In this document: piece by piece, positions 2,631-20,000 of the stretch | Position numbering within the stretch: position 1 is the stretch's first letter | Layout: every line of letters begins with the position of its first letter | Virus record (IMG/VR): IMGVR_UViG_3300021197_000193 | Location: 45,105-65,104 of that record | Source: an uncultured virus (IMG/VR IMGVR_UViG_3300021197_000193) | Lineage: Duplodnaviria; Heunggongvirae; Uroviricota; Caudoviricetes | Reading direction: 5' to 3' (one strand) | DNA length: 20,000 nt | The notes under the pieces: model-generated | What the model saw: the letters and a program-made list of their open reading frames with translations, nothing else | What the model was told of the DNA's origin: nothing | The model's database searches: none | Position numbers and translations under genes: made by a program

Positions 2631-5600
2631 ATGGCACTGTACCAATTAACTGACCGCCGCGGGAACAAAATACAGGTAGAAGGCCCAGAAGGCGCTACCA
2701 CAGAACAACTTGTGTCAATATACAACCGCACGATGGTAGAGCGCAGGCGCGAACCAGAACGTAGGTTCCGTGCAGGGTTGGAAGATTATTTCGGTACGCA
2801 AGAAAACATAGCGGAGCAGATAGCGCGTAGTAGAAAACCTACGGTGGGCGACTATTTTGGTGAAGTTCCAAAAGGTCTTATTGGCGGCGCTGCGGGGTTA
2901 GTAGAACAGGGCGCGTTAGGTCTTGCGGCATTACTACCAGAAGATGCAGAAAATGTTGTCCGTGATGGGATAAAATCTGTGGGCGGCGCGGTGCAAGATT
3001 ATGTAGCCCCAGACTTTAACTTAGAAGATAGCATCCCCCGCAAACTTAGCGAAGCAGGTGGTTCTTTTGCGGGTCTTGTTGGTGCGTCTCTTATAAACCC
3101 TATAGCAGGGGGCACATTGGCGGTAGCCGCGGGGTCTGGAGAAGCTAGCGAACGTGCGCGAGCCGCAGGTGCTACACAGGAACAACGTAACCTAGCAGCG
3201 TTACAGGGTATACTCCCGGGCGCACTTGAGCTTATCCCTGTAGGACGTTTAGTCAAAGGGATTAAACAAGTATATAAGGGTGAAGCTAAACCCGTCGAAC
3301 TTATAAAGAACCGCATCCAACGTGCATCGCGCGAAGGTGGTATAGAAGCCGCGCAAGAAGTTGCGTCTGGTATTGCCCAAAACATGATAGAGCAGGGGTA
3401 CAACCCCGAGCAAGGTACGTTTGAAGGTAGCGGAGAAGCCGCAGGGTACGGCGGTGCCGTAGGGTTTTTAGCGCAAAGCCTGCTTGACCTTGCTACACCT
3501 AGAACCCGTGGCAGTGCGGCAGATGTAGAACCAGAAGAAACACTTGCTTTACCTGCACCGGACACAGGTATTGCGGGGCTTTTACCTGCACCACCAAAAC
3601 AACTTGCCGACCAACGTAAACCTTTGGGTAATGCGCAAGCTCGCGCAGATGTAGGCAGAATAATTGATTCTACAGGGGATGTAACCCTTGGAGAGATGGA
3701 AGACATTGTAGCGCGAACAGGTATATCTCTGCCTGACCTTGAAACTGTTGTTTCTGAAGAAATGCAGAAACGTGGCACTAAGCTAGCGCAACGTGCGCAA
3801 GAAGAAATCGAAGATGAGCTTACTACTCCAGAAGTAGAACGCCCACCGTCCCGTATGGACACCGCTGTAGCAGATGCGTTGGCAGGTAGAAACGCAGTGC
3901 AAGAGGCAGCACGCAGACGTGAAGAACAAGCTGCATTAGAACGTGACGATGTAGCCGCGTACGAGCAACCCGACCTGTTAGCCGCAGAATTAGAAGCGGA
4001 ACGTAAAATATCACCAGAGGCTGCGGCACAAGATGCAGCGCGTCCTGCACCGCCGAACGTGGAGCTAGATGAACAAGGTAAAGTACGAGAAATAAAAGAA
4101 GAAGAAGTTTTACCAATACAGGGGCCACGAAGACGTGACCTTGTAGATTTAATAAGTGAAGAAAGTGCACTTGCTAAAGAAATTGAAGCGGAAGAAACGG
4201 TAAAACGTCAGCAAGAGCAAACAAGGGCCGAGTCTACCGCGGAAACCGCGCAGGGTAAATTAGACGCAGATCGTGCAGCGCAAACCGAAGCTACGCGCAC
4301 CAAAGTGTTGCAGGACACAGTGGCTAATGCAGGCGAAGTACGTAGACCAGAAGCGTTGCGTAGGCTGTACGAAACCGCGTTGACAGAAGCGGGAATTACA
4401 AACCCCAAAGCCACATCACAAGAAATGGAAAGCCTGCGCCGTGCGTCTAATGTCATACGGGCAAAAGACCCTGTAGCAGACGCCGCCGCCGCGCAAGAGG
4501 GAATCAAAGACCCAGCACAAGTAAAATTGGAAGCTATGGTAACTCCCAAAGAAAGGCGGCGAAATGTTAGACCAGTTGACCCAGAGACAGGTGGAGATGG
4601 CGTTTCGTCTGCTGGACAAGGCAGTACAGTCGGAGCCGCCCCAACCGCTGCGAGTACCGCCAACATTACAGCACCTAACGACAGCGGAATGGGACGCCCT
4701 GTGTCTGGCGTTGGAGGAACTACTGCACCAGAAGGAGCGCAGTCAGATACACTAAATCTGGACGCAGCTATTTTAGAAGCTGTAACAGACCCTGATCCTG
4801 TTACGCCTCCCGTAGAGCAGAAAAAACGGCCCGAGGCAGGACCCAAGTCAAAACGTGTTACACAGAAAACTAAACGTACGGATACCTCCGGTAGACGTAA
4901 AGTATTACCTACGTTTCCAGAAAAACAAACACTTACAAAAGTATCGAAAGACCTGAAGCGCAGGGGTCCAGCGGGTTCGTCTGTTCGTGGTACTCGTAAA
5001 GTCCAAGCCAAAGAAGACACTACACGCGCCGAGCTACGTAAACGGTGGGATGAAACTGCGCCAGCCGTGGTCAAACAAGACACCCAGACCACAGACACTT
5101 TGGTCAAAGGCGATGTGCTATCGAATAGTGACAATAAGAAAACTCTAAACTTCTTGGAGGGTAAGGTTACTACCCGTGACAAGGTTGGGCTTGCCGCTAA
5201 ACGCTACCTGTCTATGCACCCGAACCCAGAAGAAGGTTTGTTTGTAGCATTGTTCGATATGGTAAACCGCACGCCTAAGTTTTCTGGGCGTGAAAAAGGC
5301 ATGACCGATGCGCAAGCCGAGTTACGCAAAGGTACAAGTGACGTGCAAGGCGCACGCGCTGTATACTGGGCCATGAACAACCTGAGTCCACAAACACAGA
5401 AGTGGATGGACGAAACTAAAGCCGAGATACAAAAACAGTTAGATGCTGTTACGGGGTTAGACTACGCGGCGCGGACAGAATCACCTTTGACTATACGACA
5501 ACGCATAGAGAACGCTGCCCGTGCTATTAAAGAGCGCGAAGCGGTAACAGTGAAGACGGGAGTTACAGTTCAGACATCAGAAGCTGTAGAAGCTATGCCT

Positions 5601-8600
5601 GAAGGTCAGTACAGACCCCGTAGAAAAACAGGCAAGACTGCGTATGAAGCATATTTATCGGATCAGTACACCGCCGAAGAACGCAAAGCTATTGCCAAAG
5701 ACGATGACCTTGCGCTTAAAACATACGCAGACTTTGAGTTTCTACAGAAGCAAGGATTTGCCCTAGAAAAAGACGCGGTGGTTGGGCTAGATGCGGCACC
5801 CCACCCTACAGTTATGCAGGCCATAAAACGTGGTGATCTTAAAGCCGCGCTTGCCGCACTAGCCAACACAAACGGTAACGCACAGGTGCGAGAGCTAGCC
5901 GCTAAGTTTGCCAATGTAGCAGGTGACACAAAACTTGTTATAGTGAAGAACCTGAAGGCCGAAGACGGACGCCCCGCTGCAGGATTGTTTGATCCTAAGA
6001 CCAACACGATATCGCTAGACGCAGATACTGGTATCAACACGCACACGTTGATGCACGAAATGTCTCACGCAGGCATGTCAGCGGCATTGGCTGACCCTAA
6101 GAATGGGTTTGGTATTCAGCTTAAAAAGCTGTTCAAAGACTTGGATGGTCTGCTAGGTACAGCTTACGGCTCAAAAGACCCTGATGAATTTTTATCTGAG
6201 GCGATGAGCAATCCAGAGTTCCGATCAGAACTTGCAAGCATAAACCCAAAAGGCGAACCTGTTAGCGCACTGCAACGTTTCTTTAATATGGCTAACAACT
6301 TTTTGAGTAGGTTTGTGCCGTTTATTAAATCTCGTAACCTGACCGCTTTGCAAGAAGTAGACAGTCTTGTAGATGCGTTGTTAGCCCCTGCACCCATGTA
6401 TCGTTACGCCAACCAGATGGCAATGATGACTACCGCCGATGGTGTTAGGAAGTTTACACGAGACGCAGTTGATGCAACGCAGAAGGCTATAAACAAAGAA
6501 AGCCGAGAGCAATTCAGGTTCAACGTGCGGGACTTCTTTACCCAAGGGTTCTCAAAGAAAACCAAAAACCTGCTACTTAAACTTACTGGCTCTCAAGGGT
6601 TAGGCGACATTGCGGAAGCAGTTGGCTTGGGCAGAATGGGCCACGATTTGGATGAGTTGATATCCAACCAACGAGGAGAAATCCAAACCGCAAACGAACT
6701 TATTAAAAGAAAGATCAAGGAAATCCTAACCAAGTTAAACAAGGGTACGGACGAGCAGGCGCAAAAACGCCGAGAAGCCTTAGATCGTTTGATCTATGAT
6801 AACGACTACGGTGCCACTATCTATCAGGTAGACCCTACAAAACCAAAGGGTACATACATTAACAAAGACGGTAGCCCTCGTATAGACAACGATGGCAATG
6901 ATCTGTTGGAGGTATGGAACAAGCAACGTAAAGACTGGAAAGCATTAGGACCAGAGGGGCGAGCTGTATATAACGAGATGCGAGCAGTGTACAAAGGTCA
7001 GTACGAAAAGCTCAAAGCCGTTATCCTGAAACAGATTGACGAGTTGGTGCAGAACCCTGACGATGCTAAAAAACTGAAGAAGGACATCTTTGCCAGATTG
7101 TTCGATGCTAGCACCCTAGATGTGTACTTCCCGCTTATGCGTGACGGTGATTACGTGCTACGTTATGAGGTCAAGAACCCTAAGTCGTCACGCGAAGCCA
7201 CTGTGGTGCAGACATTTACTACAGACGCAGAACGTCAAGACGCTGCCAAGATGTTCCGAGCGAACAAAGACTATAAGAATGTAGAGATTGTTGACGAAGT
7301 GTCCGCGAACACCTTCAGGGGTACAGGCGTAGACCCAAGTTTTGCATACGAAGCCCTAAGTATTTTGGACAAAAACAAAGTCCCACAAGACGTAAAAGAT
7401 CAGGTAATCAAACTGTTTATAAACTCGCTACCTGAGACATCGTTTGCCAAGTCATTGCAGAAACGTAAAGGCACCCCGGGGTACATGCAGGATTCTGTGT
7501 ATGCTCTTAAGACAAAGGGCTACAGTCTTGCTAGTCAAACAGTCAAACTAAAATACGGGGCACTTTTGCGTCAGTATGAAGCTGACCTTGATACATTACC
7601 CTTTAATGCGATGTTTAAAGTTCCAAAAGCAAAGAGCTTGGTAGGGAAGAACACGGAACGGCTTACCGCTGCGTTTGGTGATGTAAAGGCAGAATTAAAA
7701 GACCGTGCGCAGTTTGCACGAAAAGGCGCGGACAACAAAAGCATAGAAGCGGTAGCCCGTAGACTGAACCAGACCGCGTTTATATACACCATCGGCTTTA
7801 ACGCATCGTCTGCTCTGGTCAACCTGTCGCAAATCCCGTTGTTCGTTGCCCCGTTTTTGGGCGGGAAACATGGGTACGTAAAAACGTACGCCGCTATTAA
7901 ATCTGCCTACGGTAATACATTACTGGGTGGTAAGCGTGGCGGCAAAACAAATTCAATACTAGATTTTTATGACATATCTGACAAAGGTACATTCACCCTG
8001 AAAAAAGGTTTAGAGTTACCTGAAGGGAAAGAAGCCGAACTACGCAACATGACCGCCTTGGTGCAAACTGCATCTCAACGGGGCTTGTTGGGCCAAGGGT
8101 TCTTAGCAGAAGCTATGGGGTTGAACGAGACTAGCCGCATCAAAAAGGGCGGTAAAATAGGCAACGCTATGGACAATGCGTCCGTGCTATCCGCATGGCT
8201 GTTTAACCACGCAGAACAACTTAACCGCCAAGTAACTTTAATGGCTTCGTTCAATCTAGCGTTGCAGGGCATAAAAATAAAAAACTACCTCGACACTAAC
8301 AAGTTAGACGACACTCCCGCCAATCGTACCAAGGCAGAAAAGAAAACGACTGGTAAAGACCCTAGCGAAGCACAAATAGAAGAAGCCGTGCGGCAAGCCA
8401 TTTATGATACACAGCAAACAAACGGTGGCACGTTCTTGGAGACTGCCCCGAGTATTGCGCGGGAAGGTATCGGGCGCGTTGCGTTTATGTATAAAAACTA
8501 CGGCCTGCAAATGTACTACACCATGTTTAAGACCGCAAAGATTGCATTGGACAGTGATAAAGGTAGATTGTTTGGCCCAGAAGGGTCACCCGAACGTAAG

Positions 8601-9446
8601 GCCGCGGTAAAACAACTTATCGGTATGCACGGATCGGCGTTGTTTTTTGCAGGGGTACAAGGACTACCATTGTACGGCGCAGTAAAACTTATGGTTAACC
8701 TGTTCTTATTGGATGAGGAAGAGGAAGATTTTGATACAATCGTGCGACAGTATATGGGTGAGGGTTGGTATAAAGGCGCGATAACCCAGTTCGCAGGGAT
8801 CGACGTGGCAGGGCGTATGGCGCTTACTGGACTTCTGATCCAAGAGAACCGCTATAACAACAACCCATCCCTAGAAGAAACAATCGGGTTCTACGCAGGT
8901 GGACCCGCACTTAGCGTTGCTAATCGTCTGTACCGTGGAGGTTCCGATTTACTGGCAGGGGAAACACAGCGTGGCATGGAAAGCATATTACCTGCAGGGG
9001 TGACCAACGCATACAGAGCAGCGTTTGGTAGGTATGCACAACAAGGCGGCGCGTTCACTAGACGTAACGACCCTATCTACGATGATGTTACCAATGGCGA
9101 ATTACTGATGTGGGGGCTTGGGTTCCCTCCTACAGAATACACATTCCGTCAGGAACAAAACTCTATCACCAAACGTATAGACATCGCTGTAAACAAGAAA
9201 CGATCCGCGCTAAACAAAAAATACTACGTTGCCTCGCGTATGGGAGATTACAGTGAGATGATGCAAGTCTATAAAGATATGCTTAAATTCAACAAGCGTC
9301 ATCCAGAGGCTGCTATTACCCCAGAGTCCATAGATCGTTCCATGAAGCGCCACGCAGAGACTACGGAAAACATGCACAATGGCGCGTCGTTTAGCACTAC
9401 GTACGGTGCCGCAGTTCAAGACATACGGAACGCCTTCAAGCAATAA
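2631..9446 (+). CDS. Giant virion/ejected polyvalent-type protein (2271 aa) with zincin-like HExxH metallopeptidase motif and PLxRFG-like domain
   Basis: AGLFDPKTNTISL...THTLMHEMSHA...DEFLSEAMSNPEF (HExxH at 6054-6068, downstream Glu). YFPLMRDGDY at ~7125-7154. Gly/Ala-rich N-terminal helices, a low-complexity linker and a long helical C-terminus with hydrophobic segments. Last gene of the + strand arm. Confidence 0.7.
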   Translation: MALYQLTDRRGNKIQVEGPEGATTEQLVSIYNRTMVERRREPERRFRAGLEDYFGTQENIAEQIARSRKPTVGDYFGEVPKGLIGGAAGLVEQGALGLAALLPEDAENVVRDGIKSVGGAVQDYVAPDFNLEDSIPRKLSEAGGSFAGLVGASLINPIAGGTLAVAAGSGEASERARAAGATQEQRNLAALQGILPGALELIPVGRLVKGIKQVYKGEAKPVELIKNRIQRASREGGIEAAQEVASGIAQNMIEQGYNPEQGTFEGSGEAAGYGGAVGFLAQSLLDLATPRTRGSAADVEPEETLALPAPDTGIAGLLPAPPKQLADQRKPLGNAQARADVGRIIDSTGDVTLGEMEDIVARTGISLPDLETVVSEEMQKRGTKLAQRAQEEIEDELTTPEVERPPSRMDTAVADALAGRNAVQEAARRREEQAALERDDVAAYEQPDLLAAELEAERKISPEAAAQDAARPAPPNVELDEQGKVREIKEEEVLPIQGPRRRDLVDLISEESALAKEIEAEETVKRQQEQTRAESTAETAQGKLDADRAAQTEATRTKVLQDTVANAGEVRRPEALRRLYETALTEAGITNPKATSQEMESLRRASNVIRAKDPVADAAAAQEGIKDPAQVKLEAMVTPKERRRNVRPVDPETGGDGVSSAGQGSTVGAAPTAASTANITAPNDSGMGRPVSGVGGTTAPEGAQSDTLNLDAAILEAVTDPDPVTPPVEQKKRPEAGPKSKRVTQKTKRTDTSGRRKVLPTFPEKQTLTKVSKDLKRRGPAGSSVRGTRKVQAKEDTTRAELRKRWDETAPAVVKQDTQTTDTLVKGDVLSNSDNKKTLNFLEGKVTTRDKVGLAAKRYLSMHPNPEEGLFVALFDMVNRTPKFSGREKGMTDAQAELRKGTSDVQGARAVYWAMNNLSPQTQKWMDETKAEIQKQLDAVTGLDYAARTESPLTIRQRIENAARAIKEREAVTVKTGVTVQTSEAVEAMPEGQYRPRRKTGKTAYEAYLSDQYTAEERKAIAKDDDLALKTYADFEFLQKQGFALEKDAVVGLDAAPHPTVMQAIKRGDLKAALAALANTNGNAQVRELAAKFANVAGDTKLVIVKNLKAEDGRPAAGLFDPKTNTISLDADTGINTHTLMHEMSHAGMSAALADPKNGFGIQLKKLFKDLDGLLGTAYGSKDPDEFLSEAMSNPEFRSELASINPKGEPVSALQRFFNMANNFLSRFVPFIKSRNLTALQEVDSLVDALLAPAPMYRYANQMAMMTTADGVRKFTRDAVDATQKAINKESREQFRFNVRDFFTQGFSKKTKNLLLKLTGSQGLGDIAEAVGLGRMGHDLDELISNQRGEIQTANELIKRKIKEILTKLNKGTDEQAQKRREALDRLIYDNDYGATIYQVDPTKPKGTYINKDGSPRIDNDGNDLLEVWNKQRKDWKALGPEGRAVYNEMRAVYKGQYEKLKAVILKQIDELVQNPDDAKKLKKDIFARLFDASTLDVYFPLMRDGDYVLRYEVKNPKSSREATVVQTFTTDAERQDAAKMFRANKDYKNVEIVDEVSANTFRGTGVDPSFAYEALSILDKNKVPQDVKDQVIKLFINSLPETSFAKSLQKRKGTPGYMQDSVYALKTKGYSLASQTVKLKYGALLRQYEADLDTLPFNAMFKVPKAKSLVGKNTERLTAAFGDVKAELKDRAQFARKGADNKSIEAVARRLNQTAFIYTIGFNASSALVNLSQIPLFVAPFLGGKHGYVKTYAAIKSAYGNTLLGGKRGGKTNSILDFYDISDKGTFTLKKGLELPEGKEAELRNMTALVQTASQRGLLGQGFLAEAMGLNETSRIKKGGKIGNAMDNASVLSAWLFNHAEQLNRQVTLMASFNLALQGIKIKNYLDTNKLDDTPANRTKAEKKTTGKDPSEAQIEEAVRQAIYDTQQTNGGTFLETAPSIAREGIGRVAFMYKNYGLQMYYTMFKTAKIALDSDKGRLFGPEGSPERKAAVKQLIGMHGSALFFAGVQGLPLYGAVKLMVNLFLLDEEEEDFDTIVRQYMGEGWYKGAITQFAGIDVAGRMALTGLLIQENRYNNNPSLEETIGFYAGGPALSVANRLYRGGSDLLAGETQRGMESILPAGVTNAYRAAFGRYAQQGGAFTRRNDPIYDDVTNGELLMWGLGFPPTEYTFRQEQNSITKRIDIAVNKKRSALNKKYYVASRMGDYSEMMQVYKDMLKFNKRHPEAAITPESIDRSMKRHAETTENMHNGASFSTTYGAAVQDIRNAFKQ

Positions 9447-18297: not shown

Positions 18298-18731
18298 TAC
18301 TTACTCGCTATCTCGCCACCACATGCCATGTAACCACATGCGTCTATCCAGTTGTCTGGATGTGATGGGTTCGACTTGATACGCGCGACTTTTAACAAGT
18401 TCATCATCACAGCTACATCTGTGGCGCTTACTTCCACACCTAGATGCACGGACCAATACTTACCTATCGTGGTGAAATTATCTTCCATGTTACCATGGTC
18501 AGCCGCGCGATCCTTGGTCACGTATTCTTTGGCGGTGTCTAGCACCTTCCCACGCGTAACCCTACGCGCTTCTTTTTCAAAAACTTCTTTGGGCGTACCA
18601 ATCTTCTTCATCAGATTGCTTACATAGCTTGGGGATGTTTTAGTCGCCATGGCAATTTCTCTGCCTGTAGCGTCAGGGTTTTTTATTTTATACTTCCAGA
18701 CTTTTTCCGCTTTGTTTGGATTCTTCGCCAT
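18297..18731 (-). CDS. HTH + DUF6378-like protein (~144 aa)
   Basis: Preferred start is ATG 18731 (GAGGAG 6 nt upstream). N-terminal ATGREIAMATKTSPSYVSNL is HTH-like; C-terminal DRAADHG..EDNF..I..YWS...DVAVMM.LLKVAR...DNWIDACGY matches DUF6378. Confidence 0.75.
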   Translation of the reverse strand: MAKNPNKAEKVWKYKIKNPDATGREIAMATKTSPSYVSNLMKKIGTPKEVFEKEARRVTRGKVLDTAKEYVTKDRAADHGNMEDNFTTIGKYWSVHLGVEVSATDVAVMMNLLKVARIKSNPSHPDNWIDACGYMACGGEIASK

Positions 18732-19050
18732 TGTTTTCTCCTCTTGGCAAGTCATATTTTCTTTTTATGTTAGACGCTGTTTTTGGGCTTATACCCATTA
18801 TTTCCGCGATAGATTTCAACGTCATGCTACGTTTCAACATGCGGTCAACCATCTCAGCGTCTTTGGTCAACACCAACTTATTGGCTTCTTTCTTGGGTCT
18901 ACCCCCCATCTGTCCGTTAAGTTTGTTGGTGCAGTTTTTGTGGGTGACACGAGAAAGTACCCGTGGGTTATCTTCTTTATCTTTTTTGGTTTGTTTCTCC
19001 CACACTTCCCGATAAAGTTCTTCATATTTTATTCGCTCTTGCTCATTCAT
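18688..19050 (-). CDS. HTH DNA-binding protein (120 aa)
   Basis: RBS AGAGG; NGQMGGRPKK motif followed by HTH MTLKSIAEIMGISPKTASNIKRKY; 44-nt overlap with the next gene. Confidence 0.7.
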   Translation of the reverse strand: MNEQERIKYEELYREVWEKQTKKDKEDNPRVLSRVTHKNCTNKLNGQMGGRPKKEANKLVLTKDAEMVDRMLKRSMTLKSIAEIMGISPKTASNIKRKYDLPRGENNGEESKQSGKSLEV

Positions 19051-19059
19051 GTGTATGCC

Positions 19060-19249
19060 TCTTATTTAATAGTGCCCTGCAGCCCACGCAAAAACAGGAG
19101 TCAAAAAATGGGCCGCAGGGTCTAACCGTACGCGGTTTCTTCGGTGCAATCACAACAACAGAAAGGATAATCATGGAGGTCGTTGCTTACACTGCTGCGG
19201 TTTTCGTGGGACAAATCAAAAAACCCACAACCCACTCACAGCTTGGGTT
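19060..19249 (-). ncRNA. Candidate structured ncRNA: five tandem hairpins, two with anti-SD/anti-AUG loops
   Basis: Stems at 19229-19249, 19206-19228, 19144-19192, 19124-19137 and 19075-19120. Four G-U wobbles in the two large stems form only on the - strand. This is the largest intergenic gap in an otherwise tightly packed operon. Confidence 0.6.
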
Positions 19250-19550
19250 AGCCGTCTGGGACCATAGACCACGTACGTAAGTCCAGCGAGACTTCGTGTA
19301 CGTTATCTTCATTGACAACCATGTCTAGTCCACCTGCGGCTCTTATTTCTTCTAGGTTCTTCTGCTGTAAGGGTGTAGGTTTGTTTTTACCTGCCTTACA
19401 TTCGATCCCAAAAAATAATCCTTCATAACATCCTATGACATCAGGCACACCGCTACGCCCGTAGCCGCCTGTCACAGGGTAAAAATAATACGCGCCTAAT
19501 TCTTTAAGCTGCGCCACTACCTTTCTTTTAACTTTTGCTTCGGGTGTCAT
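19248..19550 (-). CDS. VRR-NUC domain nuclease (putative Holliday junction resolvase)
   Basis: MTPEAKVK...GYGRSGVPDVIGC...FFGIECKAGKNKPTPLQ...IRAAGG. Preferred start is ATG 19550, 7 nt after GGAG. Confidence 0.9.
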   Translation of the reverse strand: MTPEAKVKRKVVAQLKELGAYYFYPVTGGYGRSGVPDVIGCYEGLFFGIECKAGKNKPTPLQQKNLEEIRAAGGLDMVVNEDNVHEVSLDLRTWSMVPDG

Positions 19551-19580
19551 TACCATTCTCCGATACCAGTACCCCCCTAG

Positions 19581-19602
19581 ACGAGAGGCCGTAGCCCCTC
19601 GC
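19581..19602 (-). promoter_or_regulatory. Intergenic C(UACG)G tetraloop hairpin upstream of VRR-NUC
   Basis: The - strand reads GCGAGGGGC-UACG-GCCUCUCGU: 9 bp including 2 G-U pairs, no U-tract. Confidence 0.65.
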
Positions 19603-19604
19603 CC

Positions 19605-19624
19605 ATTTAGGGAGTTCCCTATTT
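19605..19624. promoter_or_regulatory. Palindromic operator-like site, copy 2
   Basis: ATTTAGGGAGTTCCCTATTT is 18/20 identical (17 contiguous) to the reverse complement of 15515-15534 and overlaps the stop codon of the 83-aa ORF. Confidence 0.6.
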
Positions 19625-19870
19625 ATAGACCCAAAACAAGTATGGGCCAATCCGAGCGCCAACTCCATCCACATCGTTGGGCGGTGGTGGGATGTCTAGC
19701 ATGGACAGCGTTGCTAAACGCTCCTGCATCCAAGTTGGTAGCTCGTCTACACAGTTATAATGGCCGTCTACTTCCTTGTCAACCTCTCCAATGCCAAAAC
19801 TTGTGATCTTGACTTGTTTAGTATCAAAGGCTATGTTTACGCGATAAGTTATACCATCAGGTGCTTGCAT
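19619..19870 (-). CDS. Hypothetical phage protein (83 aa)
   Basis: RBS GAGGT about 7 nt upstream. C-terminal ELPTWMQERLATLSM...VDGVGARIGPYLFWVY resembles the C-terminus of the upstream gene. Confidence 0.7.
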   Translation of the reverse strand: MQAPDGITYRVNIAFDTKQVKITSFGIGEVDKEVDGHYNCVDELPTWMQERLATLSMLDIPPPPNDVDGVGARIGPYLFWVYK

Positions 19871-19881
19871 CTAGTAACACC

Positions 19882-20000
19882 TCACACGTAGAGGTAAAAC
19901 GTATGGGCATTTACTTTATACCCCACACCCTCTACGAAGTGACCATCCTCACACATACTCATAGCAGCGCACTTGTGTTGCATATCTTCCGACATCTCGT
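19882..20000 (-). CDS. 5'-truncated hypothetical phage protein, C-terminal 38 aa (not in ORF track)
   Basis: Open frame from 19998: EMSEDMQHKCAAMSMCEDGHFVEGVGYKVNAHTFYLYV, with stop TGA at 19884-19882. Confidence 0.65.
   Translation of the reverse strand, partial: EMSEDMQHKCAAMSMCEDGHFVEGVGYKVNAHTFYLYV

What the first reader, a model, noticed from the sequence alone, without database searches (positions are those of the whole stretch)
19060..19249. Multi-hairpin phage RNA whose loops display antisense copies of ribosome-binding sites (anti-SD + anti-AUG)
Seen: this ~200-nt gap in a tightly coupled operon folds on the - strand into consecutive hairpins. Hairpin 19120-19075 has a 12-bp stem (CCCUGCGGCCCA/UGGGCUGCAGGG) and loop UUUUUUGACUCCUGUUUUUGCG, which together with the stem edge is the complement of AAAACAGGAGUCAAAAAAUG (SD, 7 nt, AUG). 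Hairpin 19192-19144 (GUGUAA-GCAACGAC / GUUGUUGU-GA-UUGCAC) has loop CUCCAUGAUUAUCCUUUCU, the complement of AGAAAGGAUAAUCAUGGAG (SD, 5 nt, AUG). Hairpin 19228-19206 has loop UUUUUUGAUUUGU, sharing UUUUUUGA with the first loop. Four G-U wobbles orient the structure to the - strand. Inference: a modular multi-guide antisense RNA, each loop blocking the initiation region of a different phage or host mRNA. I found no matching RBS among genes in this window, so any targets would lie elsewhere.
Basis: partly seen in the sequence, partly recalled or inferred. Interest (0 to 1): 0.85.

Follow-up and report, generated by a model that had tools for sequence, protein, structure and literature searches.

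The report
Conserved pseudoknotted RNA in marine phages
The gap holds a real, uncatalogued folded RNA shared by dozens of uncultured marine phages, lying between a DNA-cutting enzyme gene and replication genes and showing a loop that copies the ribosome's mRNA-docking sequence, so it probably tunes translation of its neighbours rather than silencing distant genes.

Summary
They belong to one larger RNA (window 19248-19070).

The RNA matches no Rfam 15 family, tRNA or terminator. It is a family: 63 loci found with a sequence anchor, and 25 of 80 loci found only through the upstream nuclease protein. Covariation is strong (about 91-95% of cells paired against 32-46% in slid controls; 26-29 of 36 pairs change on both sides).

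The long hairpin P4 always carries an unpaired CUCC-type anti-Shine-Dalgarno motif.

The trans multi-guide reading is not supported:
- P3 is optional and the long P6 loop is specific to this lineage.
- The best antisense target in the genome (16 nt) is at chance level.
- No + strand ORF is conserved.

The element sits directly after a PD-(D/E)XK nuclease gene (42 of 52) and 19-40 nt before the next start codon in 10 of the 11 examples measured.

My best reading (about 0.4) is a cis-acting translational control element. A riboswitch, a ribozyme or a protein-binding scaffold remain open.

The parts
19070..19248 (-). Whole structured RNA element (179 nt; element position n = window 19249-n)
   Evidence: Full-length covariance-model match: R1 131.4 bits and R2 105.6 bits, E 6.7e-23. 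There is one copy in the 65-kb genome.
19230..19248 (-). P1 hairpin ACCCA / UGGGU. Its 9-nt loop AGCUGUGAG supplies the 5' strand of the pseudoknot.
   Evidence: P1 was not in the covariance model's structure. It is still 89.6% paired with 3 of 5 pairs changed on both sides in A4, and 85.5% paired with 3 of 5 in A6.
19194..19242 (-). Pseudoknot helix PK: GCUGUG (19242-19237) pairs with CGCAGC (19199-19194). It encloses P3 and the A-rich linker GAAAAC (19205-19200).
   Evidence: 5 of 6 pairs change on both sides in A4 and in A6, where 99.2% of cells pair. Variants include GCUAUG/CAUAGC, GCCAG/CUGGC, GCGGG/CCCGC and GCAGUG/CACUGC.
19206..19228 (-). It is an optional insert in the pseudoknot linker.
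   Evidence: 86.4% paired, with one pair (1 of 5) changed on both sides, in the 22 window-like sequences. It is absent or replaced in L057, L091, L094, L073 and others.
19144..19192 (-). Outer stem 19192-19187 with 19149-19144; inner stem 19186-19179 with 19159-19152; GA bulge 19151-19150; loop 19178-19160 with the conserved CUCC at 19178-19175.
   Evidence: 12 of 14 pairs change on both sides in A4 and 13 of 14 in A6. The CUCC-type motif is present in 25 of 25 representatives.
19121..19143 (-). Junction CGAAGA (19143-19138), hairpin P5 AACC/GGUU (19137-19134 with 19127-19124), then AGA (19123-19121)
   Evidence: These positions never vary in the anchor-selected set, but that is by construction of the search pattern. 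In the anchor-independent set, P5 is 100% paired and 3 of 4 pairs change on both sides: AACU/AGUU, GGCC/GGCU, AGUA/UACU.
19075..19120 (-). The 12-bp stem has 7 conserved basal pairs. The 22-nt loop (19108-19087) carries a second CUCCU and is specific to this lineage.
   Evidence: Basal 7 pairs: 6 of 7 change on both sides in A4 and 5 of 7 in A6. The long loop is seen only in the window, L001/L007/L026/L232, L062 and L125.
19048..19074 (-). A/U-rich spacer: the conserved CA (19074-19073), SD GAGG (19061-19058), then AUG of the HTH gene (19050-19048)
   Evidence: Read directly from the sequence. From the family sequences printed, I counted 19-40 nt from the 3' strand of P6 to the next start codon in the 10 of 11 examples that have a nearby start.
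19248..19556 (-). Its stop codon TAA overlaps the first base of the RNA. The likely true start is AUG 19550, with SD GGAG at 19561-19558.
   Evidence: phrog_93 'endonuclease', E 5.7e-19. Pfam gives only Hjc at 19.2 bits, under the 21.1 cut-off. The same gene lies upstream of 42 of 52 distinct elements.
18688..19050 (-). Downstream HTH gene, the first gene after the RNA in this phage
   Evidence: Pfam HTH_28, E 2.1e-05, 24.9 bits against a 25 cut-off. In most relatives a 66-aa ORF lies between the RNA and this gene.

Best explanation
The gap holds one copy of an undescribed family of structured RNAs of uncultured marine phages. It is transcribed as part of the - strand replication-module mRNA, between a PD-(D/E)XK nuclease gene and the next gene.

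Shown:
- The fold is an H-type pseudoknot (P1 plus PK, with an A-rich linker), followed by a long hairpin P4, a short hairpin P5 and a hairpin P6 of variable length.
- These are joined by highly conserved junction nucleotides.
- P4 always exposes a CUCC-type anti-Shine-Dalgarno motif. In this phage the P6 loop carries a second one.

Inferred:
- The RNA acts in cis on translation of its neighbours.
- The exposed anti-SD loop pairs with the SD region of a flanking gene. The candidates are the nuclease's own RBS about 330 nt upstream (an icaR-like 3'-to-5' contact) and/or the RBS 20-40 nt downstream.
- The conserved pseudoknotted core fixes the geometry or senses a signal that decides whether the loop is free.
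- What that signal is remains unknown.
For: A real RNA on this strand:
- Fold z-score is -2.98 on the - strand against -0.89 on the + strand.
- On a plain MAFFT alignment of 22 sequences, 91.5% of cells pair against 35-43% in slid controls, and 15 of 41 pairs change on both sides.
- On 52 distinct anchor-found sequences, 90.9% pair against 32-39%, and 26 of 36 pairs change on both sides.
- On 22 distinct sequences found only through the nuclease protein, 94.7% pair against 35-46%, and 29 of 36 pairs change on both sides.
- No shuffle of 500 reaches the observed share of paired cells or the covariation score in any of the three.
- G.U cells number 159 against 31 A.C cells.
- Variant contigs in RNA libraries carry A69G with U91C (compensatory), A66G (giving G.U) and G51A (U.G to U-A).

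Not coding:
- Indels of 1-2 nt separate close relatives.
- The + strand ORF from the conserved ATGGAG is absent in 22 of 52 sequences, and elsewhere its frames and lengths differ.

Anti-SD motif:
- It is present in 45 of 52 sequences by a strict window.
- It is present in 25 of 25 representatives against 13.8 expected.

Position:
- The RNA starts within -27 to +9 nt of the nuclease stop in 24 of 25 cases.
- In 10 of the 11 members whose spacer I counted, it ends 19-40 nt before the next start codon.
- Nuclease loci without the RNA are tightly coupled to the next ORF: the gap is 31 nt or less in 42 of 47.

Pairing with the nuclease RBS:
- There are runs of 10 nt (CCUCCAUGAU/AUCAUGGAGG in L043), 9-10 nt (L057) and 9 nt (L031).
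- The mean longest Watson-Crick run is 5.77 for own pairs against 5.26 for cross pairs, permutation p = 0.001.
- The base 5' of CUCC pairs with the base 3' of GGAG in 14 of 28 own combinations (0.50) against 0.29 in cross pairs. The pairs are U-A 8 and C-G 5.
- L246 has CCUCCGU with ACGGAGG where others have CCUCCAU with AUGGAGG.
Against: - In the window itself the complementarity is minimal. Downstream it is CCUC with GAGG. Upstream it is CUCC with GGAG, plus GAU with AUC across a 2-nt bulge (my reading of the sequences).
- The upstream own-versus-cross signal fades when G.U pairs are allowed (p = 0.087). By duplex energy it is p = 0.16.
- Downstream tests give p = 0.17 by energy and p = 0.075 by run length.
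- None of these tests corrects for shared ancestry.
- Loops with A before CUCC pair at that position in only 1 of 11 combinations.
- 10 of 52 elements have no nuclease gene within 450 nt upstream, although 2 of these have under 60 nt of sequence available.
- 55 of 80 nuclease homologues have no RNA.
- A simple anti-SD clamp does not need a pseudoknotted core with this many fixed junction bases. In this reading the core is unexplained.
- There is no expression map. The RNA-library data are contigs without ends or strand.
Confidence: 0.4

Rival explanations
1. It is a riboswitch or a self-cleaving ribozyme of a new class. The conserved pseudoknotted multi-helix core is the functional heart. The CUCC motif is a tertiary contact or part of an expression platform.
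For: - The pattern is typical of aptamers and ribozymes: junction bases nearly fixed, peripheral stems (P3, the P4 extension, the P6 extension) variable in length.
- There is a pseudoknot with an A-rich linker.
- It sits directly upstream of an RBS.
- In the subgroup with a long P6, the purine-rich P6 apical loop (for example AAUGGGUGGAGAU) is complementary to the P4 motif (CUCCA with UGGAG in L089). That would fit a loop-loop contact (my reading of the sequences).
Against: - No Rfam ribozyme or riboswitch model matches, even at E up to 10.
- The downstream genes differ: a 66-aa coiled-coil ORF, HTH, DUF6378, HD-domain, SNase-like and RusA-like. No common metabolite is suggested.
- The association is stronger with the upstream gene.
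- No cleavage or ligand data exist.
Confidence: 0.25
2. It is a scaffold that binds a protein or a machine: RNA polymerase (put-like antitermination), the ribosome, or the neighbouring nuclease. The conserved core is the binding surface.
For: - Highly conserved unpaired junction bases.
- Strong linkage to one protein gene, the nuclease upstream of 42 of 52 elements, while the downstream genes vary.
- One copy per genome in 3 of 3 complete genomes that carry it.
- It sits at the head of the replication module.
Against: - 55 of 80 close nuclease homologues lack the RNA, and at least 8 RNAs lack the nuclease next door. An obligate partnership is therefore unlikely.
- Nothing tested here bears on binding.
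Confidence: 0.15
3. One reading: a trans-acting multi-guide antisense RNA, in the manner of S. aureus RNAIII. Its loops would block the initiation regions of several phage or host mRNAs.
For: - An unpaired anti-SD-like motif in a hairpin loop is conserved.
- The window has a second one in P6, as do L060 and L091.
- One 16-nt complement (2 G.U) covers the SD, spacer and AUG of a 70-aa Cys4 ORF at genome 32200-32215. Its duplex energy is -19.8 kcal/mol, against -15.8 (sd 1.2) for the minima of shuffled loops.
Against: - The same loop finds 16- and 17-nt runs in 2 of 5 other phage genomes, including one without the RNA.
- 0 of 2 complete RNA-bearing relatives have the 70-aa gene.
- 0 of 4 complete phages with that gene have the RNA.
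- Close homologues of the gene have different RBS spacing.
- The P4 loops of relatives G001 and G002 find no own-genome run that other genomes do not match (G001 14 nt; G002 16 nt, shared with G000 and G001).
- The P3 loop and the P6 long loop are not conserved.
- No sigma-70-type promoter or intrinsic terminator flanks the element.
- The core is conserved more than any seed.
Confidence: 0.1
4. It is an mRNA processing or stability element. A compact fold would mark an RNase cut site, or shield the 3' end of the nuclease message or the 5' end of the downstream message.
For: It is intercistronic. It starts at the stop codon of one gene and ends just before the next RBS. It is an optional insert between otherwise tightly coupled genes.
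Against: Stabiliser hairpins and RNase III sites do not usually need a pseudoknot or this many fixed unpaired bases. No end data are available.
Confidence: 0.07
5. The + strand is the functional one: short ORFs from ATG 19108 or 19173, or a CsrA-type sponge with GGA loops.
For: The + strand loops read AGGA/GGAG with good SD-AUG geometry.
Against: - The + strand fold is not better than shuffles (z -0.89).
- G.U cells outnumber A.C cells 159 to 31, which favours the - strand.
- The ORF from ATGGAG is absent in 22 of 52 sequences, and elsewhere it is 8 to 29 or more aa long in shifting frames.
- The ORF at 19108 has 5 codons.
Confidence: 0.02

Closest known systems
icaR mRNA of Staphylococcus aureus
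   Same: An anti-SD-like pyrimidine motif lies downstream of a coding region and is complementary to that gene's own SD region. Here that is the P4 loop against the nuclease RBS, with runs of up to 10 nt in relatives.
   Different: Here the motif sits in the loop of a hairpin inside a conserved pseudoknotted multi-helix RNA. The element is intercistronic in a phage operon. The pairing is only statistically suggested, and in the window it is 4 bp plus 3 bp.
S. aureus RNAIII and RsaE/RoxS-type sRNAs with C-rich (UCCC) loops (recalled)
   Same: A multi-hairpin RNA with unpaired anti-SD-like motifs in its loops.
   Different: - No own promoter or terminator was found.
- No targets stand above chance.
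- The core is conserved rather than a seed.
- The RNA is embedded in an mRNA.
Phage T4 gene 32 translational operator (a 5' H-type pseudoknot followed by an unstructured A/U-rich run to the RBS; recalled)
   Same: It is a phage replication-module leader. It has an H-type pseudoknot, then an A/U-rich spacer (for example CACCACUUUAACAAUGGAGG) to the RBS.
   Different: - This RNA is far larger, with three more helices.
- The downstream gene is not the ssDNA-binding protein. The T7-type SSB gene lies at 13268-12582.
- The downstream genes vary across the family.
SD-sequestering pseudoknot riboswitches (preQ1-II, SAM-II/V, NAD+-II) and the pistol ribozyme (a hairpin-loop pseudoknot); features recalled
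   Same: A hairpin loop pairs downstream to form a compact pseudoknot with an A-rich linker. The element lies next to an RBS.
   Different: No Rfam 15 model scores, even at E up to 10. This RNA is larger. The SD is not part of the pseudoknot. No ligand or cleavage is known.
Catalogue of 10,006 candidate structured RNAs from IMG/VR (Fremin, Bhatt, Kyrpides 2023, PMC10690425; I read the abstract, the outline and section 2.4)
   Same: It drew on the same source collection and the same kind of object: a covarying structure within 25 nt upstream of genes.
   Different: The main text parts I read name no motif like this one. The per-motif tables are supplements, which I could not open, so it may or may not be listed there without a name or function.

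Membership tests
Any Rfam 15 family | Covariance-model score at or above the family's gathering score | tested here: not met
   There are 0 matches in the 20-kb window at gathering thresholds. At E up to 10 on 18950-19350 there are only ceN63 (19.7 bits against 65, outside the element) and TCV_H4 (15.7 bits against 50).
Intrinsic terminator | G+C-rich hairpin followed directly by a run of U | tested here: not met
   The scan of 18600-20000 finds one terminator-like site, at 19923-19905, and none in the element. No U-run follows P6 or P3.
tRNA / tmRNA | Cloverleaf or tmRNA fold found by ARAGORN | tested here: not met
   0 genes in the window. The 3' GCACCA of many relatives reads GCACUA here and varies elsewhere.
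Trans-acting anti-SD sRNA (RNAIII / RsaE type) | Unpaired C/U-rich anti-SD motif in hairpin loops | tested here: met
   CUCC-type motif in the P4 interior: 45 of 52, and 25 of 25 representatives against 13.8 expected.
Trans-acting anti-SD sRNA (RNAIII / RsaE type) | Independent transcript with its own promoter and terminator | tested here: inconclusive
   No sigma-70-like promoter or terminator was found at the element. Phage-specific promoters are not covered, and RNA-library contigs give no ends.
Trans-acting anti-SD sRNA (RNAIII / RsaE type) | mRNA targets with complementarity beyond chance | tested here: not met
   The best own-genome run is 16 nt. Runs of 16-17 nt occur in 2 of 5 other phage genomes. 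Host mRNAs could not be tested.
cis 3'-UTR to 5'-UTR anti-SD pairing (icaR type) | The motif is complementary to the SD of the gene upstream, and the two covary | tested here: inconclusive
   Own-versus-cross Watson-Crick runs are 5.77 against 5.26, p = 0.001. With G.U allowed, p = 0.087. By energy, p = 0.16. The flank position pairs in 14 of 28 own combinations against 0.29 for cross pairs. None of this is corrected for phylogeny.
Riboswitch | Conserved structured domain with covariation, in a leader directly upstream of an RBS | tested here: met
   Covariation. In the 10 of 11 members with a nearby start, I counted 19-40 nt from P6 to the next start codon (from the sequences).
Riboswitch | Controlled genes share a pathway that points to a ligand; ligand binding | tested here: not met
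   The downstream genes vary. Ligand binding cannot be tested with these tools.
Self-cleaving ribozyme | Site-specific self-cleavage | not testable with these tools
   No match to the hammerhead, twister, pistol, hatchet or HDV models of Rfam. No raw reads with ends were available.
T4 gene 32-type operator | The downstream gene encodes the ssDNA-binding autoregulator | tested here: not met
   The downstream gene is an HTH protein. The SSB-like gene is 5.8 kb further on.
Small protein gene on either strand | Open frame kept across relatives | tested here: not met
   The + strand ORF is absent in 22 of 52 sequences and elsewhere shifts frame. On the - strand, indels of 1, 2 and 1 nt separate the window from L002/L003.

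The most novel reading that the evidence does not exclude
A new class of phage regulatory RNA. A pseudoknotted sensor core, inserted between a Holliday-junction-type nuclease gene and the replication genes, would use an exposed mimic of the ribosome's anti-SD to clamp the RBS of the gene before it and/or the gene after it. That would time nuclease and replication protein synthesis during infection. The core might respond to a ligand, to ribosome passage over the stop codon that abuts P1, or to a host factor. It would be the first phage example of icaR-like 3'-to-5' SD sequestration, built into a riboswitch-like fold.
Probability: 0.25. Interest if true: 0.75.

Novelty: new variant of a known kind. 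Interest (0 to 1): 0.62.

Why it matters
Structured RNAs of phages are poorly charted, and this one has unusually clean evidence. It has five helices, including a pseudoknot, supported by compensatory changes in two differently ascertained sequence sets. It has a fixed genomic address and a conserved anti-SD loop.

If it regulates translation of a nuclease and the replication genes, it is a compact, portable control module of marine phages. If its core binds a ligand or cleaves itself, it is a new riboswitch or ribozyme class.

It also bears on a wider question: whether the anti-SD-like loops often noticed in phage RNAs act in cis or in trans. Reporter assays with compensatory mutations can test this directly.

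Tried and rejected
- blastn of 18600-19700 against 50,697 phage records found no match. blastn of the L038 element at E up to 10 found one chance 29-nt hit in an E. coli phage. No cultured phage carrier was found, though BLAST is insensitive for this purpose.
- The anchor pattern in genome contigs gave 2 hits (Brevibacterium, a Moorellales MAG). Both are GC-rich and not confirmed by the models: L059 has no hit and L058 is partial at E = 0.18. No prophage or host lead came from this.
- Model R1 was built with the 5' strand of P4 shifted by one base. This was my error. The wrong structure gave 37.7% pairing in P4. The corrected structure gave 82.8% and was used for R2.
- Cis pairing of P4 with the downstream RBS: own-versus-cross p = 0.17 by energy and p = 0.075 by run length, so not significant.
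- The 70-aa Cys4 ORF as a trans target is rejected as chance level.
- RNA-library contigs (4 runs from 3 studies) cover parts of the region, but they are contigs. They show no ends, no strand and no proof of transcription.
- Readthrough or frameshift pseudoknot: the spacing to the stop codon varies from -27 to +41 nt, some members have no ORF upstream, and I saw no slippery site by eye.
- tRNA-like CCA end: GCACCA is not conserved.
- DNA-level cruciform: the G.U over A.C asymmetry argues for one strand.
- Literature searches:
  - 'VRR-NUC' with 'ribozyme' found 0 papers.
  - 'VRR-NUC' with 'noncoding RNA' and 'phage' found 1 unrelated paper.
  - The string GAAGAAACCGCG found 7 papers whose titles and abstracts are all on unrelated topics.
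  - 'structured RNA', bacteriophage, pseudoknot, covariation and metagenom found 8 papers (7 listed), none describing this motif in the parts I read.
- Earlier findings of this scan: nothing near this place or like this sequence.
Full report
**Context**

The window is the last 20 kb of a 65,104-base virus record rated 100% complete. From about 9.7 kb to the window's end, the genes run on the - strand and form a replication module:
- DUF927 primase/helicase
- T7-type SSB
- HTH_17 protein
- Gam-like protein
- SNF2 helicase
- PD-(D/E)XK nuclease
- family A DNA polymerase
- DUF6378 protein
- an HTH protein (19050-18688)
- upstream of the gap, a 102-aa nuclease gene (19556-19248)

The nuclease matches phrog_93 'endonuclease' at E 5.7e-19. 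Pfam gives only sub-threshold Hjc and VRR_NUC matches. The polymerase is only 37% identical to its nearest cultured relatives, which are Rhizobium and Pseudomonas podophages.

**Checking the observation**

The - strand folds at -67.0 kcal/mol, z = -2.98, with 1 of 200 shuffles as good. The + strand gives z = -0.89, with 38 of 200 as good. Rfam finds nothing at gathering thresholds and only two irrelevant sub-threshold matches at E up to 10. ARAGORN finds no tRNA or tmRNA. The consensus scan finds no promoter or terminator at the element.

**It is a family**

- A protein search with the HTH gene gave one near-identical contig (99.8% over 951 nt) and two relatives. In those two, the flanking genes are about 70-75% identical, yet the first 130 nt or so of the gap are better conserved and differ by compensatory changes and by 1-2 nt indels.
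- An exact 20-mer from the 5' part found 15 viral loci.
- A pattern from the centre of the element found 38 viral loci, 69 metagenome loci and 2 genome-contig loci. Together with the window's own copy these make 110 stretches, of which 68 are unique.
- Covariance models built from these hit 63 of 63 family loci at full length and 0 of 4 chance anchors at E up to 0.01.
- The pattern forces the central bases to be invariant. I therefore made a second set that does not depend on it. The nuclease protein alignment found at least 586 relatives in IMG/VR, of which the best 80 were kept. The model hits 25 of those 80, always just downstream of the nuclease gene on the same strand.
- In this second set the 'anchor' does vary. 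The junction reads YCG[AGU]A[GU]A, and P5 shows compensatory pairs.
- G000, G001 and G002 each hold exactly one copy.

**Structure**

Element position n corresponds to window 19249-n.
- P1: positions 1-5 with 15-19
- PK: 7-12 with 50-55. This is the P1 loop pairing downstream, an H-type pseudoknot whose linker ends in the conserved AAAAC.
- P3: 21-25 with 39-43 (optional)
- P4: 57-70 with 90-105, with a GA bulge
- P5: 112-115 with 122-125
- P6: 129-140 with 163-174

| Alignment | Sequences | Cells paired | Slid controls | Pairs changed on both sides |
|---|---|---|---|---|
| A2, MAFFT only | 22 | 91.5% | 35-43% | 15 of 41 |
| A4, anchor set | 52 distinct | 90.9% | 32-39% | 26 of 36 |
| A6, anchor-independent | 22 distinct | 94.7% | 35-46% | 29 of 36 |

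In all three alignments, 0 of 500 shuffles reach the observed share of paired cells or the covariation score. A4 and A6 were fitted to the model, so they lean towards its structure. P1 was not in the model, and it still shows 3 of 5 covarying pairs in both sets.

G.U cells outnumber A.C cells 159 to 31, which fixes the strand. Variant contigs in RNA libraries carry four substitutions in helices, and all four keep the pairing.

One slip of mine should be noted. It was corrected and in R2.

**What is and is not conserved in the loops**

- The P4 interior always carries a CUCC/UCCU-type motif: 45 of 52 by a strict window, where the 7 misses are boundary effects, and 25 of 25 representatives with a wider window against 13.8 expected from shuffles.
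- The representatives are related to one another, so this is descriptive rather than a probability.
- The second half of the window's P4 loop (CCUUUCU) recurs only in some members.
- P3 is optional.
- The 22-nt P6 loop with its second CUCCU is limited to the window's nearest relatives. Two other lineages, L060 and L091, have different long pyrimidine-rich P6 loops. One subgroup has a purine-rich P6 loop that is complementary to its P4 motif.

- In the 65-kb genome, the four quoted 16-20-mers match only their own complement, at up to 3-4 mismatches.
- The longest complement to the P4 loop, counting Watson-Crick and G.U pairs, is 16 nt. It lies exactly on the SD, spacer and AUG of a 70-aa Cys4 ORF.
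- That hit does not survive controls:
  - The same loop gives runs of 16 nt in G001, 17 nt in G006 (a phage without the RNA), 14 nt in G007 and G008, and 13 nt in G002.
  - The 70-aa gene is absent from the 2 complete relatives that have the RNA.
  - The RNA is absent from the 4 complete phages that have the gene.
  - Close homologues of the gene have other RBS spacings.
- The P4 loops of G001 and G002 find no own-genome run that other genomes do not match (G001 14 nt; G002 16 nt, shared with G000 and G001).
- No + strand ORF is conserved.
- Host mRNAs could not be examined.

**Genomic address**

The downstream gene varies. Examples are a 66-aa coiled-coil ORF, then HTH, DUF6378 and the polymerase in most close relatives; HTH directly after the RNA here; and HD-domain, SNase-like, RusA-like or small acidic ORFs elsewhere.

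The upstream gene is the same nuclease in 42 of 52 distinct elements. Of the 10 misses, 2 have fewer than 60 nt of upstream sequence available.

The RNA starts within -27 to +9 nt of the nuclease stop in 24 of 25 cases. Nuclease loci without the RNA run into the next ORF with a gap of 31 nt or less in 42 of 47. The element therefore behaves as an optional 150-190 nt insert at this junction.

**Which SD might the loop meet?**

- Downstream: own-versus-cross tests are not significant (p = 0.17 and p = 0.075).
- Upstream, against the nuclease RBS:
  - There are long runs in several lineages: 10 nt in L043, 9-10 nt in L057 and 9 nt in L031.
  - The mean longest Watson-Crick run is 5.77 for own pairs against 5.26 for cross pairs, p = 0.001. 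This drops to p = 0.087 with G.U allowed, and p = 0.16 by energy.
  - Anchored on CUCC:GGAG, the flanking position pairs in 14 of 28 own combinations against 0.29 in cross pairs, with U-A 8 times and C-G 5 times. Loops with A at that position pair in only 1 of 11.
- These tests ignore phylogeny.
- The nuclease SD lies inside the conserved 3' end of a small upstream ORF (my reading), which also constrains it.
- In the window itself the complementarity is only 4 bp to either SD.

**Verdict**

The object is a new structured RNA family. Its best-supported role is cis control of translation at the junction between the nuclease gene and the replication genes (about 0.4). Riboswitch or ribozyme (0.25), protein or machine binding (0.15), trans antisense (0.10) and processing or stability (0.07) remain open.

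The IMG/VR catalogue of candidate structured RNAs (PMC10690425; I read the abstract, the outline and section 2.4) may list it without a name.

Earlier notes of this scan mention other phage RNAs with anti-SD-like loops. They are unchecked leads, not evidence.

Noticed in passing
window 19548-19561 (- strand): The nuclease ORF is listed from AUG 19556, but the SD GGAG (19561-19558) lies only 1 nt before it. The second AUG (19550) has a 7-nt spacing and matches the conserved N-terminus MTPEAKVK, so it is the likelier start.
   Followed up: partly
window 19528-19674 (- strand) and relatives (L232-L283): A small upstream ORF ends in a conserved Tyr-Trp-Tyr (UACUGGUAUC) stretch that overlaps the nuclease SD. 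GGUAUC is present in 15 of 23 RNA-bearing nuclease loci and in 1 of 47 without the RNA. This may be lineage relatedness, or it may be part of the pairing site.
   Followed up: partly
G000:C1:32213-32425 (+), outside the window: A 70-aa Cys4 (zinc-ribbon-like) ORF whose RBS is a 16-nt complement of the P4 loop. The protein family is widespread: 117 relatives in IMG/VR. The match is judged to be chance.
   Followed up: yes
L029, L021, L061, L089 and relatives, 20-45 nt upstream of the element: One subgroup of the family has an extra covarying hairpin just 5' of P1 (GUAAGGG...CCCUUAC, UAGGUA...UACCUA). It also has a long P6 whose purine-rich apical loop (AAUAGGUGGGGAU or AAUGGGUGGAGAU) is complementary to the P4 CUCC motif. 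This may be a loop-loop contact.
   Followed up: no
window 19043-19174 (- strand): A 43-codon ORF with four Cys runs through P4-P6 and ends 8 nt into the HTH gene. It has no SD, and indels in relatives break the frame, so it is probably not a gene.
   Followed up: partly
window 18688-18755: The listed DUF6378 ORF (18755-18297) overlaps the end of the HTH ORF by 68 nt. A later start is likely, since relatives begin at MAKK/MTKK with a good SD.
   Followed up: no
window 2631-9446 (+): A 2,271-aa ORF, preceded by a 769-aa ORF, lies on the opposite strand. Presumably these are structural or injected proteins. I did not examine them.
   Followed up: no
L038:913-1113 and relatives: A 66-aa ORF (MGDEQL..LKWLKRQVDNLQDE.., which looks coiled-coil) lies between the RNA and the HTH gene in most relatives but is missing in the window. 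It has no PHROG match.
   Followed up: no
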